Shown here: in pieces, positions 6,425-20,366 of the stretch
Layout: the number at the start of each line of letters is the position of its first letter
Numbering within the stretch: position 1 is the first letter of the stretch
Sequence record: MT944117.1
DNA length: 64,000 bases
DNA from: Escherichia phage PNJ1809-36
Strand: one strand, 5' to 3'
Notes under the pieces: model-generated
What the model was told of the DNA's origin: nothing
Databases searched by the model: none
The model's input: the letters and a program-made list of their open reading frames with translations, nothing else
Position numbers and translations under genes: made by a program

Positions 6425-6613
6425 ATGGCACGTTTAGCAGATAACCCTGTATTCTACCCCGTTCTTGATCTTTATGATGAATTGACATATGTTGTGGAGC
6501 GGTATAATTACAATGAAGACCTCTTGGAGACAAACCTTAAAGTAGTTCTGATGAAAGCCTATCAGCAAGGGCAACGTGAAATTTTGGAGAGTATGAAAAA
6601 TGCGAATAACTGA
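6425..6613 (+). CDS. hypothetical protein (62 aa)
   Basis: ATG 6425 after SD AAAGGAG. Confidence 0.5.
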   Translation: MARLADNPVFYPVLDLYDELTYVVERYNYNEDLLETNLKVVLMKAYQQGQREILESMKNANN

Positions 6614-7142
6614 TGATTATGTATTCTTCTTTTCACATAAAGATGTTTTTAGTAATTGGTATATTGCACCCTTTACAGAAACCGAACCAAGTTACAATCA
6701 GACATTTAATTGTGTCGAACAATACATGATGTGGCGTAAAGCTTTGCTTTTTAATGATCACAACACTGCACAGGCTATTCTGACTCATAGCTTAAAACGA
6801 GAAGATGAGAAGATACAAGCTTATTACAAACGTATGGGTAGGGCAGTAGCAGGTTTCGATAACAAAATATGGGAAGAGAATCGTGAGCGTATTGTTATGC
6901 GAGGTTTATGCTTGAAGTATGTACAGAATCCAGACTTGTATGCCGATTTACGTCTATATCAATACAAAACATTTGTTGAAGCAAGTCCTTACGATAAGGT
7001 ATACGGAATTGGAATGGGGATGTATGAACCAGGGGTGCTAAACCCTGCCACCTGGAAAGGGCAGAATCTTTTAGGCAAATATCATAACAAACTGATCGAA
7101 ATACTTTTCCCAGACAAAATACCGCAAAGACGATATTTGTGA
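6600..7142 (+). CDS. NADAR-domain (YbiA/DUF1768-like) protein
   Basis: FSNWYIAPF, EQYMMWRKALLF, RMGRAV...W..NRE..VMRG...KY, YGIGMG...G.NLLGK blocks match the YbiA-family pattern. Confidence 0.75.
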   Translation: MRITDDYVFFFSHKDVFSNWYIAPFTETEPSYNQTFNCVEQYMMWRKALLFNDHNTAQAILTHSLKREDEKIQAYYKRMGRAVAGFDNKIWEENRERIVMRGLCLKYVQNPDLYADLRLYQYKTFVEASPYDKVYGIGMGMYEPGVLNPATWKGQNLLGKYHNKLIEILFPDKIPQRRYL

Positions 7143-7383
7143 TATTTTAACTTTTTTCATTTTTAGAACAAAGGTGTCACTTTGTAGCACAGAAATAAGG
7201 CTCCTACAGCACCGTAGAGAGCCTGTTATTTTGTCCTATACAAACCCTTATCTTTTTCAGTTTGCATCACTAGGATTCGATCTAAGTGGGTTCCTGAAGG
7301 TTTACCAATAAGATTAAAGGTTATCTCAAATTCCCACTACCTATTATCTCAAAAATCCCTCAAATTATTTAAACTTTTTAAGA

Positions 7384-7570
7384 ATTTACAAAAGTGAAAG
7401 TTGAAAACCAAAATTTAAAGTTTAGGAAAATTATCTTAAAATGTTAGATACAAAACAAAACTCAAAAGTCAAGGAAAATTTTAAAAATTTTGCGCGCCCA
7501 CAGTATTTAAAGTTTTTTTGCTTTTACAAAAATGAAAGTACAAAAGCAAAATTTAAAGTTTACAAAAATT
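7384..7570. repeat. two copies of a ~48-bp direct repeat (iteron-like)
   Basis: tttacaaaagtgaaagttgaaaaccaaaatttaaagtttaggaaaatt at ~7384 and a near-copy at ~7521. Confidence 0.7.
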
Positions 7571-7583
7571 TATGCAGATGGGA

Positions 7584-7698
7584 ATGAGAAGAGTTCTCAT
7601 ATGGAAATGCAAATGATAATGATTCGCATTTAGGTTTATAAATGAGATTGATTCTTATTTGATAAGGTAAATGATAATCATTCTCATTTAGAGAATGA
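7584..7698. promoter_or_regulatory. cluster of dyad-symmetric operator-like sites, Fur-box-like
   Basis: ATGAGAAgagTTCTCAT (7584-7600), AATGATAATGATTCGCATT (~7612), AATGATAATCATTCTCATT (~7669, 13-nt core identical to Fur box core AATGATAATCATT), CATTCTC-N5-GAGAATG (7679-7697). Confidence 0.4.
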
Positions 7699-7946
7699 CG
7701 CGCAGGGGCGGTGTTTGTCTCGCGCTCCCGTGTCCCCTCGCCATGTAATAAGAATAACAGATCCAGCCAGGAAAGCAAGCGATTATTTTATCTTTACATT
7801 TCTTTACAAATATATAGCGCCCAGCCTACCGGCGATCAACCTTCCAACCAGCGCCCTGGTATGTTAGCCCCGCCTTTACGCCGTGGGGTGGCGCTTCCTC
7901 TTCTGTATGTAAAACAGTATAAGCCCGATCCCTGGGCTTGTCAAGA

Positions 7947-8213
7947 TTATTTTTTGTTTTCTTGCCAGGAAAGGACACCTAACCAAAAATGCATATCGCC
8001 CCGCGCCCCTGGTGGGATCTTGCTTTCCCCGCCGCCACTGCAAGCCCATAAATAACCATCAGCAAACGGATCAAAATGGTCTATCTCTTCCACCTTATGA
8101 TCGCCCAGGTTGAGAACGGTTTCAACCTTTAAGCCCGTTGCGCTTGCTACCTGGTGCACCGTGCCGCCTTGCCAGCCCAATGAGTGCATAAGGTGTAATG
8201 TAGTATTTGTCAT
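7947..8213 (-). CDS. hypothetical protein (88 aa) inside a GC-rich island
   Basis: only clean ORF in 7700-8300; weak SD. Confidence 0.35.
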   Translation of the reverse strand: MTNTTLHLMHSLGWQGGTVHQVASATGLKVETVLNLGDHKVEEIDHFDPFADGYLWACSGGGESKIPPGARGDMHFWLGVLSWQENKK

Positions 8214-8322
8214 GGTGTCGCCCTTTCTTTGTTGTGCGCCCTGGTTGGCGCGGTAGAAAGATGATAGCCCTTTCTTTTATATATAGCAAGCAAAAAGAAA
8301 ATAAAAAAGATTGAAAAAGTGA

Positions 8323-8381
8323 TTGACGTTCGCCAGGTGGCGGCATAATATTTACCACGTAGGGCGGCAATGGTGCCGCTC
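8323..8381 (+). promoter_or_regulatory. early cassette promoter E1 with 5'-proximal stem-loop
   Basis: -35 TTGACG 8323-8328, -10 CATAAT/TAATAT ~8344-8351, stem-loop GGCGGCA-ATGG-TGCCGCT 8362-8379. Confidence 0.65.
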
Positions 8382-8400
8382 ATTATTTGGAGTTAAGATC

Positions 8401-8598
8401 ATGGCAACATTGCACATTGTGGCGAAAGCTGGACAAATCAACGTAATAGTAAACGGTTTTACTGAGTTCAGTCATCCCCAGGATGATCATGAAACGGTTT
8501 TATCTTTCATTGATTCACTGTTAGAAATGGGAGTAATTACAGAAGATCAGCATACTGCAAAATGCAAGCGCGTTAAGCAGATTGCAGGAATAGAATAA
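8401..8598 (+). CDS. hypothetical early protein (65 aa)
   Basis: ATG 8401 after SD GGAG; listed ORF 8323 start lies in promoter. Confidence 0.6.
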   Translation: MATLHIVAKAGQINVIVNGFTEFSHPQDDHETVLSFIDSLLEMGVITEDQHTAKCKRVKQIAGIE

Positions 8599-8603
8599 AA
8601 GTC

Positions 8604-8666
8604 TTGACAACAAGCCACAACCTGATAAGATGTATCACATAGGGCGGCGGAATGGTCCAGCCGCTC
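8604..8666 (+). promoter_or_regulatory. early cassette promoter E2 with 5'-proximal stem-loop
   Basis: -35 TTGACA 8604-8609, TGaTAAGAT ext -10 8623-8631, stem-loop GGCGGCGGA-ATGG-TCCAGCCGC 8642-8666. Confidence 0.65.
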
Positions 8667-8689
8667 ACAACAGAAGAGAGATTATAATC

Positions 8690-8962
8690 ATGGCATCATA
8701 TAGCGCAACAATGATCGTAGCTGGCACAACTGGTAAACCTATGAGCGGTGGCGGATCTTTCGCTAATATCAATATTGACGGGCGTTTATCCCTGGACGCA
8801 GCGATTGCCATTGCACGGGAAACATTTAAGAAAGAATGTAATTTCAACAAGCAAGATTATCTCGGTTTCGCTATTGAAAAAACCGCGCGCTTTGTTGATT
8901 ATAAAAGCCCGAAAATGGTTGATACTACACTAAAAGCGCAAGATGTAGCGTTTTTGCTTTAA
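8690..8962 (+). CDS. hypothetical early protein (90 aa)
   Basis: ATG 8690 after AGAAGAGAG SD-like leader. Confidence 0.6.
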   Translation: MASYSATMIVAGTTGKPMSGGGSFANINIDGRLSLDAAIAIARETFKKECNFNKQDYLGFAIEKTARFVDYKSPKMVDTTLKAQDVAFLL

Positions 8963-8965
8963 GGC

Positions 8966-9020
8966 TTGACATTAACGAATAATTTGTTAATATGTTACAT
9001 AAAGCGGGAATAGTTCCCGC
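8966..9020 (+). promoter_or_regulatory. early cassette promoter E3 with 5'-proximal stem-loop
   Basis: -35 TTGACA 8966-8971, TGtTAATAT 8985-8993, stem-loop GCGGGAA-TAG-TTCCCGC 9004-9020. Confidence 0.65.
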
Positions 9021-9038
9021 TATTTGTAAGGTGGTAGA

Positions 9039-9296
9039 ATGTTTTACATCAAATTAAAAGGTCACGTGATCGCGTTCAAAGATAACGCTTTTTACAGATT
9101 AGCAAAATATGCGTTAATACATCCCCACTATGTTTATATAAGGGGGCGTGATGAAATAAATATCTTTGATCAAACAACATGCGAGAACATCGAGATCCGC
9201 AAGGTTGGCGTACGTGATTATCGTACATCTTTCTACCCTTGCAAGGATTCAGCAAGTCTTTTTAAAGTATGCCAATTGTTGAAAAAAGGTGGTTAA
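9039..9296 (+). CDS. hypothetical early protein (85 aa)
   Basis: ORF; SD GGTGG. Confidence 0.6.
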   Translation: MFYIKLKGHVIAFKDNAFYRLAKYALIHPHYVYIRGRDEINIFDQTTCENIEIRKVGVRDYRTSFYPCKDSASLFKVCQLLKKGG

Positions 9297-9297
9297 T

Positions 9298-9855
9298 ATG
9301 GGCCGCGAATATGTGATCCAGTCTTGGGTAAAACATGAAGCAGATGATCCGCGCATCATTCCCGATCATCTTATCGATGAATCCACGGGATATAGCGGTG
9401 AGCAAATAGGTAACAGATTAGCACGTAGTAACGGCAACGTAAAAGCGCGTTATGTGCGCCCTGGCTGGCTGGCAAATGGTAACGCTGATTTATCCAGTGC
9501 GGAAGATGCGAGCGACGGCGCGAAAGATAATCCTTTGTACAAAGTTGATCCGGCTTTTCGTGTCCTGGATGAATACCCCAGCAAGATAGCGGCGCTTGAT
9601 GAAGCATTAGAAAGTAAGCGCATAACCTGGACCGCTTACAACATGGCAAAAAACGTACTTGATGGTAAATTGATTCAAGCCGAAAGAAAATTAGCCAAAA
9701 TTGCAGCCATAGCCCAGGAGGAAGACGAGGAGACAACGGAAGAGGAAGAGTACGAAGAGATCCCGCCGTTGTTGTGTATTGATGCTTTTCCTGATTATCA
9801 GCCGACAGAGGAAGAAAAAAGGATCGCACTAGAAAACTTTGAAAATAGTCTTTGA
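9298..9855 (+). CDS. hypothetical early protein with acidic C-terminus
   Basis: ATG 9298 after SD AAAGGTGG; listed 9289 start is GTG in same frame. Confidence 0.6.
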   Translation: MGREYVIQSWVKHEADDPRIIPDHLIDESTGYSGEQIGNRLARSNGNVKARYVRPGWLANGNADLSSAEDASDGAKDNPLYKVDPAFRVLDEYPSKIAALDEALESKRITWTAYNMAKNVLDGKLIQAERKLAKIAAIAQEEDEETTEEEEYEEIPPLLCIDAFPDYQPTEEEKRIALENFENSL

Positions 9856-18792: not shown

Positions 18793-18807
18793 TTGACAAC
18801 AAAACAA

Positions 18808-18833
18808 GGGCGCACCAAGCGCCCTTTCTTTTT
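18808..18833 (+). terminator. rho-independent terminator closing the early array
   Basis: GGGCGC-ACCAA-GCGCCC followed by TTTCTTTTT. Confidence 0.75.
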
Positions 18834-20366
18834 GCCCGAATAATGTTGATAGATTCCGCCTATGAAAAACCGACACAGAACAAAACTGAATAGATCGCGG
18901 TATCGAGCTAATCAACCATTAAACGAATAACCATACCTCCCAGGGTAACAGGTTGTTAGAGAGCCATTTAGAGCGGTTAAAATCGATCAACAACCAACAA
19001 CAAACCATCAAAAACACCCTTTTACCTCCTTTCTAGTGCAATGATAACCATTATCATCTATCCATGTTTATCTATGCAATATAAGTGCATAACTATAATG
19101 TTGATAATAGTTCGCAACAACTAACTAACCAACAACCTAAAACAATAAGCAAACTAATCATAATCAAAGGAATAATAGCAAGATGATTGATAACGACAAA
19201 CAATCAAACCATGATGAATACTAAGCAAGATAACGATAACACGACAAAACAACCAACTAACGAACAATAACAAACGAAACCATTAAAATAACAACTATTA
19301 GCAAAATAGTGCCTGAATGAAATCATTACAAAACGAATCATTCACAGGATCATCATTAGCACGCTATGCCGGACACATAGCGAGCTAATAATAAGCCAAC
19401 TACACCCCAACAATCATAACCATCGGTGATGGTTATTTCTTGTTACTGCGTAGCTTGCAATAATTGCAAGCGTAATGACGCTTACACTTATTGCGCTGGC
19501 TTATTATTAGCATTATATGTAATTACCAAGATCATAACATTAGCGCAATAACAATAATCATTGTGGTAATTACAAGATGAAATAATCGCTATCGCTCAAA
19601 GATTATTAGCAAGATGAATAATTGCACGTAGCAACATGAGCGAATAGCGACAGGTTGCATAGTGTGCACATAGATGTACACGCAGTGTATAAACATACAG
19701 GAAAATAAAGGCTAATCTTTTGGGGGCGAATACTATCGCGTAGCGATATGTTGAGCATCTTCTCTTAAACGTAAATAAAATCAGAAAATTCTTGATTTAT
19801 TTTAATTTTTATGTTAATAAACGTTTAAATAATAATCATTCTCATATGAATAATAGTCTGCTTGTCATGAGCGGGATTAGTTGACAATGTTCCGTCATAT
19901 GATGAGGTTGCCAAACCATTGATAAATAAGTGTTTGTGTGATTTATAATCAAGCGGCCCACCTTGTCGCTATGTTGGCATGAGCCTTGCATAAGTCATTG
20001 AATACGAATGATAATTATTCTCATTCGCATGATATTTGGGAATTGTCGCTGCGTGGACCTGACGGCCCGAAAATTCGCGTTAAGCACTTCTTACGTATGT
20101 GCCATGATTTTTGCCATATGATATTGATTCTACTAGATATTCTTGCCATGATTGCCATGAAACAGGGTGTCCCGAAATAATCTCTCCCTGTAGATATTTT
20201 GGGTTACTTTTTATACAAGAGTGGGGTGTCAAAAATAATTGGTATATATGGGATAATTGATAGGAATCCCCTATGATAATTCGATTGTAATTCCCTAAGA
20301 TTGATCGTATGATGTTGGTGATTGATGATTGCCATGAAAGATGGCTAACGATGAGAGGAGATTATC
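18834..20366. other. gene-free 1.5-kb region, strand-skewed A+C-rich (CAA/AAC-rich, G/T-poor on plus strand)
   Basis: no credible ORF; long tracts such as aaccaacaacaaaccatcaaaaacaccc and acaaaacaaccaactaacgaacaataacaaacg. Confidence 0.7.
20100..20337. repeat. five copies of TTGCCATGA-type motif including a perfect tandem pair
   Basis: TGCCATGA at ~20100, TTGCCATATGA ~20111, TTGCCATGATTGCCATGA 20143-20160, TTGCCATGA 20329-20337. Confidence 0.6.

What the first reader, a model, noticed from the sequence alone, without database searches (positions are those of the whole stretch)
7700..8300. GC-rich island with one minus-strand ORF adjacent to the regulatory region
About 600 bp with clearly higher GC than surrounding phage DNA, containing an 88-aa minus-strand ORF (7947..8213), GCCCTTTCTTT terminator-like tails and GC hairpins (e.g. 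GCGCC-CTGGTT-GGCGC). Composition suggests horizontally acquired material (a moron) or a structured RNA locus.
Basis: seen in the sequence. Interest (0 to 1): 0.4.

Follow-up and report, generated by a model that had tools for sequence, protein, structure and literature searches.

The report
Conserved phage RNA gene plus accessory ORF
The GC-rich island in this E. coli phage is real: its left half looks like an unannotated, structured non-coding RNA gene conserved across two phage subfamilies, and its right half is a small accessory protein gene of unknown function.

Summary
The window is a Phapecoctavirus, 100% identical to Escherichia phage vB_EcoM_ASO2A over the 1301 bases compared. The island is real: 7691-8290 is 50% GC and is the richest 600-bp stretch in the window (mean 39.1%, sd 2.6). 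It has two parts, and I read both as transcribed leftward.

1. ORF 7947..8213 (minus strand, 88 aa) is a genuine gene. Homologues keep its length down to about 45% identity and sit in the same synteny. AlphaFold gives five helices at pLDDT 93, with a helix-turn-helix-like N-terminus. It matches no Pfam family and no solved fold. It is the most GC-rich ORF in the window and is missing from several related genera. It has no E. coli or plasmid match.

2. 7697-7946 is non-coding yet more widely conserved than the ORF. The core at 7812-7907 occurs once per genome in Stephanstirmvirinae and Vequintavirinae. It has an invariant 18-mer, a hairpin with compensatory changes in 6 of 7 pairs, and a second covarying helix that can form an H-type pseudoknot only on the minus strand. 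A conserved sigma70 promoter (TTGACA-17-TATACT) sits just upstream. It matches no Rfam family.

The "terminator tails" are the ORF's ribosome-binding site and 5'UTR. The RNA's function is unknown.

The parts
7697..7742 (-). GC-rich conserved block 2 (about 71% GC over 7697-7745; invariant GGTGWTTGTCT flanked by complementary GC runs). Its structure is not resolved.
   Evidence: Conserved in 12 genera-level relatives. Composition. Coordinates.
7751..7778 (-). Second leftward sigma70-like promoter (TTGCTT-16-TATTCT in the window; TTGCAA-17-TATATT in Mydo and CR9).
   Evidence: It scores at least 9/12 on the minus strand in 21 of 33 homologues, against 11 of 33 on the plus strand, so it is weaker evidence than P1.
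7791..7810 (.). Direct repeat TCTTTACAtt / TCTTTACAaa, conserved in most relatives.
   Evidence: The motif is not over-represented in the window.
7812..7907 (-). Core of the conserved structured non-coding element. It comprises the invariant 18-mer CTACCGGCGATCAACCTT (7826-7843, plus-strand reading), hairpin P2 (7845-7863), the pseudoknot region (S2 7868-7871 with 7885-7888; S1 7879-7882 with 7890-7893), and a purine-rich 5' leader on the minus strand (7894-7906).
   Evidence: Covariance model R1 scores 94.7 bits here and finds one copy per genome. Covariation is shown. No Rfam family matches.
7916..7944 (-). Promoter P1: TTGACA (7944-7939), 17-nt spacer, TATACT (7921-7916). An A-tract lies upstream. 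The predicted start is about 7909.
   Evidence: It matches 11 of 12 positions. The hexamers and spacing are conserved while the spacer varies. The blind scan finds it again in CR9 and GEC_vB_MG.
7921..7939 (-). Hairpin AAGCCCAGGGAUCGGGCUU followed by AUACUGUUUU. This is the likely terminator of the 88-aa gene, and it lies inside the P1 spacer.
   Evidence: The hairpin is kept by compensatory changes in relatives.
7947..8213 (-). The 88-aa gene (ASO2A_262, phrog_19316): a small all-helical protein with a helix-turn-helix-like N-terminus. It is accessory, being present in only some lineages.
8214..8262 (-). 5'UTR of the 88-aa gene. The hairpin GCGCC..GGCGC (8236-8251) sits inside a longer stem that pairs UCUUUCU with the Shine-Dalgarno sequence AGAAAGG.
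8261..8289 (-). Predicted promoter of the 88-aa gene (TTGCTA-17-TATCAT). It diverges from the first early promoter at 8323.
   Evidence: 9 of 12 positions.

Best explanation
The island is a compact leftward (minus-strand) transcription module made of two genes.

(a) A small accessory protein gene sits at 7947..8213. It has its own sigma70 promoter, a 5'UTR that can hide its ribosome-binding site, and a terminator hairpin. The product is a five-helix protein with a helix-turn-helix-like N-terminus. I infer a DNA-binding early regulator.

(b) Directly behind it lies a deeply conserved, unannotated gene for a structured non-coding RNA. A strong host-type promoter (P1) is built around the first gene's terminator hairpin and starts transcription at about 7909. 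The RNA has four parts in order: a purine-rich leader, an H-type pseudoknot (CGCC/GGCG interlocked with CCCC/GGGG), a bulged hairpin, and an invariant single-stranded 18-mer (AAGGUUGAUCGCCGGUAG in the RNA). The island is GC-rich because of these helices and because of the atypical composition of the ORF.

Shown by the evidence: the conservation, the covarying helices, the conserved promoter and the single copy per genome. Inferred: that the minus strand is the functional RNA, that the pseudoknot forms, and the RNA's 3' end (roughly 7750 or about 7670).

Most likely mode of action, which is inference: the RNA is made early and works as an RNA. Its folded scaffold would present the invariant 18-mer to a conserved partner, either a protein or another RNA.
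For: **Conservation**
- The non-coding part aligns at 70-84% identity in Mydovirus, Certrevirus, Seunavirus, Henunavirus and in Serratia and Klebsiella phages.
- Flanking DNA does not align in these phages, and many of these records annotate nothing over the match.

**Copy number**
- Model R1 finds exactly one copy per genome: 32 phage loci at 53-115 bits, then 8 metagenome loci and 3 more.
- Chance matches to the 18-mer pattern score at most 22.5 bits.

**Structure**
- In hairpin P2, 6 of 7 pairs change on both sides and 90.5% of cells are paired.
- For the whole structure, 0 of 500 shuffles reach the observed score, and slid controls give about 41% paired.
- The second helix occurs as CCCC/GGGG, CCAA/UUGG, CCAG/CUGG and CCAU/AUGG.
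- On the minus strand the two short helices give canonical pseudoknot loop lengths: L1 of 1-2 nt, L2 of 1-2 nt and L3 of 6-7 nt. The 57-nt insertion of L014/L039 falls in L3.

**Strand**
- The best sigma70 match next to the core averages 9.2 of 12 on the minus strand (23 of 33 loci reach 9) against 6.7 on the plus strand (1 of 33).
- P1 is recovered blind in CR9 and GEC_vB_MG.
- P2 forms more pairs and more G.U pairs on the minus strand: 230 against 201 pairs, and 11 against 4 G.U.
- The core has C>G and T>A on the plus strand. This is the opposite sign to the skew across the plus-strand gene blocks.

**Non-coding status**
- Loop lengths differ by non-multiples of 3, and there is no start codon.

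**The ORF**
- It has 21 homologues of the same length down to 45% identity and 221 cluster representatives at E<=0.001.
- The AlphaFold model has pLDDT 93.
- Residues 15-38 align to the repeated helix-turn-helix unit of a designed protein.
- Remote homologues sit in the same synteny with the RNA core about 40 nt behind them.
Against: - There are no expression data.
- Minimum-free-energy z-scores are unremarkable: -1.15 on the minus strand and -0.39 on the plus strand.
- Wobble evidence is split. The CCCC/GGGG helix favours the plus strand, with a conserved G.U that becomes G-C in L171. CCAG/UUGG in L015, L218 and L222 is A.C on the minus strand. L028 points the other way.
- S1 (CGCC/GGCG) has only one clearly compensatory lineage, L025.
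- No canonical intrinsic terminator follows the core on the minus strand, so the RNA's length is unknown.
- No partner for the 18-mer was found. There is no complementarity beyond 9-10 nt to the E. coli rrnH rRNAs or its three tRNAs. There is no second near-copy in the 64-kb window.
Confidence: 0.55

Rival explanations
1. The element is an origin-of-replication module. The leftward promoters (P1, the second promoter, and a third in Seunavirus) drive G-rich transcripts into the adjacent AT-rich region, which carries repeats and palindromic boxes (7300-7690). That transcription would open the DNA, or the RNA itself would prime DNA synthesis. This is how the T7 primary origin works (tandem promoters followed by an AT-rich stretch), as do T4 oriF/oriG and ColE1 RNA II. 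Under this reading the conserved fold is a pre-primer structure, and the invariant 18-mer is a site for the phage replication machinery.
For: - Two or three leftward sigma70 promoters have no ORF downstream of them.
- The minus-strand RNA is G-rich, because the core has C>G on the plus strand.
- Immediately downstream lies a 25%-GC stretch. It carries 72-nt direct repeats and four phased palindromes at 29-bp spacing.
- The whole architecture is conserved across two subfamilies.
- The origin of these phages is unknown. Skew analysis of rV5 only tracked transcription direction (PMC3606486).
- That T7, T4 and ColE1 origins use this promoter-plus-unwinding layout is established knowledge.
Against: - No replication data exist for any of these phages.
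- The palindromic boxes are not unique to this locus. Three more lie at 19.0-20.0 kb, which fits operators better than iterons of a single origin.
- Cumulative GC skew shows no turning point here.
- The neighbouring genes are not replication genes.
Confidence: 0.22
2. The functional RNA is on the plus strand, or on both strands. In the first case, a transcript starts at the weak promoter overlapped by the last Fur-like box (about 7660-7697) and reads rightward through the core. It would end at the hairpin and T-run at 7921-7960. This would make it a repressor-controlled RNA. In the second case, that transcript is one partner of a sense/antisense pair with the P1 transcript, formed by convergent transcription.
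For: - The P3 helix has G.U pairs only on the plus strand.
- The P3/P4 region is more stable on the plus strand in 31 of 32 sequences.
- L030/L040 carry a C(UUCG)G tetraloop in P2 on the plus strand.
- The hairpin at 7921-7939 is followed about 10 nt later by a T-run on the plus strand.
- A conserved palindromic operator lies between -35-like and -10-like hexamers, TTGAAT-18-CAGAAT, in many relatives.
Against: - No plus-strand promoter of at least 9 of 12 is conserved next to the core. The box region averages 7.5 of 12 on both strands.
- On the plus strand the two short helices cannot coexist, because L3 would be 1 nt.
- The T-run is far from the hairpin in Mydo, CR9 and GEC. It is also explained by the A-tract upstream of P1 and by the ORF's C-terminal lysine codons.
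Confidence: 0.15
3. There is nothing beyond a horizontally acquired moron. On this reading the GC island simply reflects foreign DNA brought in with the 88-aa ORF, and the flanking non-coding DNA has no function of its own.
For: The ORF has the highest GC of the 95 ORFs in the window and a high GC3. It is present in some related genera and absent in others.
Against: - The non-coding part is conserved in more genera than the ORF, including genera that lack the ORF: CR9, KaOmega, GEC_vB_MG and pEa_SNUABM_56.
- It shows compensatory base changes.
- There is no match to E. coli genomes or plasmids.
- The 94 bacterial-genome pattern matches are scattered across unrelated taxa, as chance would give.
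Confidence: 0.03

Closest known systems
Phage-encoded small structured RNAs with their own host-type promoter, such as P1/P7 c4 and P4 CI antisense RNAs, lambda OOP, and T4 species 1 / RNA C and D (from my own knowledge)
   Same: It is a short, non-coding, single-copy locus. It sits behind a sigma70 promoter in a regulatory or early region. It has stem-loops that present single-stranded recognition sequences.
   Different: There is no sequence or structure match to any Rfam family, C4 included. No complementary target was identified. A pseudoknot plus bulged hairpin is not the c4/CI fold. These phages are strictly lytic.
Transcription-activated or RNA-primed origins: T7 primary origin, T4 oriF/oriG, ColE1 RNA II (from my own knowledge)
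   Same: One or more promoters read into an AT-rich, repeat-bearing stretch with no ORF. The transcript is G-rich and folded.
   Different: There is no evidence of replication initiation here. There is no homology to RNA II. The palindromic boxes also occur at a second locus.
Morons (autonomous accessory genes of phage genomes with their own promoter and terminator)
   Same: The 88-aa ORF has a predicted promoter and terminator, atypical GC, and patchy presence among relatives.
   Different: It has no detectable host or plasmid source. It is an old resident, kept in the same slot down to 45% identity. These are lytic phages, so there is no lysogen-fitness role.
Small helix-turn-helix regulators of phages (Cro/XRE-like)
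   Same: The size, the all-helical model and the G-T-x3-V-A-x2-T-G-L-x3-T-I-L-x-L pattern fit. It is placed divergently next to early promoters.
   Different: There is no Pfam or NCBIfam match. The best solved-structure matches are not significant and cover only about 30-50 residues. No operator has been assigned.

Membership tests
Any Rfam 15 RNA family | Covariance-model match at or near the family's gathering score | tested here: not met
   There were no hits at E<=1 in window 6500-9500. In six homologous loci the only hit at E<=0.1 was an unrelated 21.6-bit hit elsewhere in L025.
Structured non-coding RNA (generic) | Helices maintained by compensatory substitutions across homologues | tested here: met
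   In P2, 6 of 7 pairs change on both sides and 90.5% of cells are paired. For the whole structure 0 of 500 shuffles reach the observed score, and slid controls give about 41% paired. S2 occurs in four Watson-Crick variants.
Structured non-coding RNA (generic) | The locus is transcribed | not testable with these tools
   Only a conserved sigma70 promoter supports transcription. No RNA-seq is available.
H-type pseudoknot | Two interlocked helices with sterically allowed loops (short L1, long L3), both supported by covariation | tested here: inconclusive
   The loop geometry fits the minus strand only: L1 of 1-2 nt and L3 of 6-7 nt. S2 covaries well. S1 has one compensatory lineage, L025, and several single mismatches.
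   Neither strand has a T-run after the hairpin at 8236-8251, and the scan did not flag it. It folds as a 5'UTR element.
Moron | An own promoter and terminator, presence/absence among relatives, and deviant composition | tested here: met
   The promoter at 8289..8261 and the terminator-like hairpin at 7939..7921 are predicted. The ORF is absent in CR9, KaOmega, GEC_vB_MG and pEa56. It has the top GC of 95 ORFs. The promoter and terminator are predictions only.
Host-derived horizontally acquired DNA | Detectable similarity to host chromosome or plasmid DNA | tested here: not met
   There was no blastn match at E<=0.01 in 5,426 complete E. coli genomes or in 72,556 plasmids.
Helix-turn-helix DNA-binding proteins | A recognisable HTH domain by profile or fold | tested here: inconclusive
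Fur box (for the adjacent palindromes, outside the finding) | A match to GATAATGATAATCATTATC / TGATAATNATTATCA, and binding by Fur | tested here: inconclusive
   The best copy, at 7667-7685, matches 16 of 19 positions. The family consensus TGAGAATCATTCTCA differs at one symmetric position. Binding cannot be tested with these tools.
Transcription-activated replication origin | One or more promoters reading into an AT-rich unwinding element, and initiation of DNA synthesis there | not testable with these tools
   The layout is present. Initiation cannot be assessed.

The most novel reading that the evidence does not exclude
The conserved RNA, the tandem leftward promoters, the phased Fur-box-like palindromes and the AT-rich repeats together form the long-sought replication origin or developmental switch of rV5-like and phi92-like phages. 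In this reading a folded pre-primer or regulatory RNA is made leftward from P1. It is opposed or gated by a rightward promoter controlled through Fur-family operators. Replication or early development of a strictly lytic phage would then be tied to host iron status.
Probability: 0.12. Interest if true: 0.8.

Novelty: new member of a known kind. Interest (0 to 1): 0.5.

Why it matters
Phapecoctavirus, Justusliebigvirus (phi92), Vequintavirus (rV5), Seunavirus (PVP-SE1), Mydovirus and Certrevirus phages are widely isolated and are proposed for therapy and biocontrol.

Every genome examined carries this element once, at the boundary in front of the early genes. Most records annotate nothing over it, or only hypothetical ORFs, including a spurious one in phAPEC8. 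The rV5 paper only marks a "non-coding" box (PMC3606486).

A conserved fold with an invariant 18-mer, which I infer to be promoter-driven, is a concrete and testable handle on early regulation or replication in this group. It can be tested by deletion, compensatory mutants, pull-down of the 18-mer's partner and 5'/3' end mapping. It would also be a candidate new RNA family for Rfam.

The result also corrects annotation. The phAPEC8_00257 call is probably wrong, and the 88-aa minus-strand gene is real.

Tried and rejected
- **tRNA or tmRNA.** ARAGORN found none in the window.
- **Known RNA families.** No Rfam family matched.
- **Pseudo-ToxI of phiTE.** There is no ToxI-like repeat in the phiTE locus.
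- **Mimicry of or complementarity to host RNAs.** Against the E. coli rrnH 16S, 23S and 5S rRNAs and three tRNAs I found only 9-10-mers, which is chance level. An earlier duplex-energy script timed out.
- **Host or plasmid origin.** There was no match.
- **Bacterial copies of the 18-mer.** The 94 hits are scattered across unrelated taxa at about the chance rate, and none is enterobacterial.
- **A closing stem around the whole core.** AGCGCC/GGCGCT exists only in the window's closest relatives and not in tuntematon or other genera.
- **A small ORF in the RNA.** There is no start codon, and the indels shift the frame.
- **CsrA-sponge idea.** The GGA motifs are not invariant; for example, L025 lacks them in the 18-mer region.
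- **DnaA box in GATCCACC.** The window itself has GATCAACC.
- **Deciding the strand from folding energy.** The result is split: P2 favours the minus strand and P3/P4 favour the plus strand.
- **A consistent structure for block 2 (7697-7742).** I could not resolve one across genera.
- **Function of the ORF.** The solved-structure fold searches gave nothing significant, and the viral library returned only the ORF's own family. AFDB50 was unavailable. The large-protein hits in the exhaustive HMM search are leucine-rich-repeat false positives.
- **Literature.** Searches found no description of this element.

Full report
**Identity of the window.** The region 7400-8700 is 100% identical to Escherichia phage vB_EcoM_ASO2A (MZ726793; Phapecoctavirus, Stephanstirmvirinae) and 94-98% identical to many other members of the genus. 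In that record the island holds one annotated gene, ASO2A_262, a "hypothetical protein" on the minus strand. The phAPEC8 annotators instead called a plus-strand ORF across the same DNA.

**The observation.** The composition claim is correct. Window GC is 0.391, and 600-bp windows have mean 0.391 and sd 0.026. The maximum, 0.502, lies at 7691-8290, and 7697-8260 is 0.514. The preceding 7300-7696 is only 0.252. The 88-aa ORF at 7947..8213 on the minus strand is there.

On the minus strand AAAGAAAGGGC is the Shine-Dalgarno region of the ORF. The GCGCC..GGCGC hairpin (8236-8251) sits in its 5'UTR, inside a longer stem that pairs UCUUUCU with AGAAAGG. No U-run follows the hairpin on either strand, and the scan did not flag it.

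**The ORF is a real gene.**
- It matches phrog_19316 end to end, a family of unknown function.
- A search of 5.8 billion proteins returns 21 clusters with the same length (86-93 aa for full-length members) down to about 45% identity. They share a strongly conserved N-terminus, TLHLMHSLGWQGGTVHQVASATGLKVxTILNL, and a C-terminal FWLGV motif.
- An exhaustive profile search gives 221 cluster representatives at E<=0.001, mostly of 80-110 aa. The few very large hits are leucine-rich-repeat proteins and are false positives.
- AlphaFold2 gives a confident five-helix model with pLDDT 93.2.
- Residues 15-38 align to the repeated helix-turn-helix unit of a designed protein (8vd6). Weak local matches are to Cro/XRE-type proteins.

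I therefore call it a putative small DNA-binding protein, at low to moderate confidence.

**The ORF behaves like an accessory gene.**
- It has a predicted promoter (TTGCTA-17-TATCAT, 8289..8261) that diverges from the first early promoter. A terminator-like hairpin lies right after its stop codon at 7939..7921.
- Its composition is atypical. It has the highest GC of the 95 ORFs of at least 80 aa in the window: 49.4% against 39.2 +/- 3.1, with GC3 of 0.51 against 0.34 +/- 0.07.
- It is present in Phapecoctavirus, phi92-like, rV5-like, one Klebsiella phage, Serratia phage Kashira and, as a longer relative, phiTE. It is absent from CR9, KaOmega, GEC_vB_MG and pEa_SNUABM_56.
- The island has no DNA match in E. 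coli genomes or plasmids.
- Two remote homologues sit in the same slot, between the early genes and the ~0.8-0.9-kb gene-free gap that precedes the upstream gene block (the NADAR gene in one of them).

**The non-coding half is the more interesting part.** A sensitive DNA search shows that window 7692-7913, and above all 7791-7913, is conserved at 70-84% identity in distant genera. Flanking DNA no longer aligns there, and many of these records annotate nothing over the match. The genera include Mydovirus, Certrevirus, Seunavirus and Henunavirus, plus Proteus, Serratia, Enterobacter and Cronobacter phages.

The alignment has these features:
- an invariant CTACCGGCGATyhACCTT;
- a hairpin of variable length and sequence;
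- the block GTTAGCCCCGCCTTTTCGCCGTGGGGTGGCG;
- a pyrimidine-rich tail.

**Copy number and distribution.** Pattern scans gave further homologues from IMG/VR and from metagenomes. A covariance model built on 25 sequences (R1) finds exactly one copy in the window (7812-7907, 94.7 bits) and one in each related genome. Chance matches to the 18-mer score at most 22.5 bits. The 94 matches in bacterial genomes fall in unrelated taxa at roughly the chance rate. No Rfam family matches the window or six homologues, and ARAGORN finds no tRNA.

**Structure.** Hairpin P2 (7845-7863, with a one-base bulge) changes on both sides in 6 of its 7 pairs, and 90.5% of its cells are paired. For the whole structure none of 500 shuffles reaches the observed covariation, and sliding the partner drops pairing to about 41%.

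The second helix, C7868-C7871 with G7885-G7888, occurs as CCCC/GGGG, CCAA/UUGG, CCAG/CUGG and CCAU/AUGG.

A third short helix, CGCC 7879-7882 with GGCG 7890-7893, lies partly inside the loop of the second. On the plus strand the two could not coexist, because the connecting loop would be 1 nt. On the minus strand they form a canonical H-type pseudoknot with L1 of 1-2 nt, L2 of 1-2 nt and L3 of 6-7 nt. The 57-nt insertion of L014/L039 falls in the long loop. S1 has only one clearly compensatory lineage, L025 (GGAC/GUCU), so I rate the pseudoknot as plausible and not proven.

**Which strand.**

For the minus strand:
- The sigma70 promoter TTGACA-17-TATACT (7944..7916) matches 11 of 12 positions.
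- Its hexamers and spacing are conserved while the GC-rich spacer hairpin varies.
- Next to the core, the best promoter score averages 9.2 on the minus strand (23 of 33 loci reach 9) against 6.7 on the plus strand (1 of 33).
- The same promoter is found blind in CR9 and GEC_vB_MG.
- An A-tract lies upstream of its -35 hexamer.
- P2 forms more pairs and more G.U pairs on the minus strand: 230 against 201 pairs, and 11 against 4 G.U.
- The pseudoknot geometry fits only this strand.
- The core has C>G and T>A on the plus strand, opposite in sign to the skew across the plus-strand gene blocks.

For the plus strand:
- A G.U closes the CCCC/GGGG helix and becomes G-C in L171.
- CCAG/UUGG appears in three sequences.
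- The P3/P4 region has lower folding energy on the plus strand.

I conclude that the minus strand is the more likely functional strand, at about 0.6-0.65. Transcription of both strands is not excluded.

**Context.** Reading leftward on the minus strand, the order is:
1. the ORF promoter;
2. the 5'UTR;
3. the ORF;
4. its terminator hairpin, embedded in P1;
5. the RNA core;
6. the TCTTTACA direct repeat (7791-7810);
7. a second promoter (7778..7751);
8. GC block 2 (7697-7742);
9. four Fur-box-like palindromes phased at 29 bp (7583-7688);
10. AT-rich 72-nt repeats.

No ORF lies downstream of these leftward promoters. This layout recalls transcription-activated or RNA-primed origins such as the T7 primary origin, T4 oriF/G and ColE1. 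I keep that as the main rival.

Against it, the palindromes also occur three times in a second ORF-free region at 19.0-20.0 kb, which suits operators of a regulator better than iterons of a single origin. The rV5 paper shows an unlabelled "non-coding" box and could not locate an origin by skew (PMC3606486). Six further literature searches found no description of the element. The ASO2A paper, read separately, also does not mention it (PMC10612097).

**Mechanism.**

Shown by the evidence:
- a conserved, single-copy, non-coding element;
- covarying helices;
- a conserved promoter.

Inferred:
- It is made as an early leftward RNA of roughly 150-240 nt. Candidate ends are the weak hairpin in the second promoter's spacer, or the box hairpin at 7699..7677.
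- The pseudoknot and hairpin form a scaffold that presents the invariant 18-mer to a conserved partner.

I found no partner. There is nothing beyond chance in the rrnH rRNAs and tRNAs, and no second near-copy in the window.

**Verdict.** The RNA is a new family of a known kind, a phage-encoded structured small RNA. Interest is moderate.

Noticed in passing
window 7583-7688; also 19040-19058, 19828-19846, 20007-20025: Fur-box-like palindromes (AATGAKAATNATTMTCATT) occur seven times in the window, against 0.38 expected by chance. Four of them are phased at 29 bp just left of the island. The best copy matches 16 of 19 positions of the E. coli Fur consensus. One to five copies are conserved at this locus in all related genera examined. 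Whether host Fur or a phage protein binds them is unknown.
   Followed up: partly
window ~18800-20360: This is a second long stretch of about 1.5 kb without credible ORFs. Part of it is strikingly A/C-rich, and it carries the other three palindromic boxes.
   Followed up: no
window 7300-7696: This region is very AT-rich (25% GC). It has two 72-nt direct repeats (7361-7432 and 7499-7570, 82% identical) and recurring TTTACAAA motifs.
   Followed up: partly
window 8362-8381, ~8641-8668 and after later early promoters: Several early sigma70 promoters right of the island (at least 8323 and 8604) are followed by a conserved GC hairpin (TAGGGCGGC...GCCGCTCA) in the 5'UTR. It is annotated as a "terminator" in MZ726793 and as a PHIRE "promoter" in phAPEC8.
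   Followed up: no
window 7711-8055 (+), equivalent to phAPEC8_00257: The plus-strand ORF annotated in phAPEC8 is probably a mis-call. It has no PHROG family. It overlaps the conserved RNA, whose loop lengths vary by non-multiples of three, and it also overlaps the antisense of the real 88-aa gene.
   Followed up: partly
window 6600-7142 (+): The last gene before the non-coding region encodes a NADAR-domain protein (Pfam E = 4e-36). It keeps this position in remote relatives.
   Followed up: no
GenBank records MG065650, MG065689 and MH533020 (L010): Records named Campylobacter phage B15/A110a and Acinetobacter phage ABPH49 are near-identical here to E. coli Phapecoctavirus/Justusliebigvirus-like phages and to Serratia phage Kashira, respectively. 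Their host labels look doubtful.
   Followed up: no
L014 and L039 (IMG/VR contigs), element core: These divergent homologues carry a 57-58-nt insertion with three extra small hairpins inside the long pseudoknot loop.
   Followed up: partly
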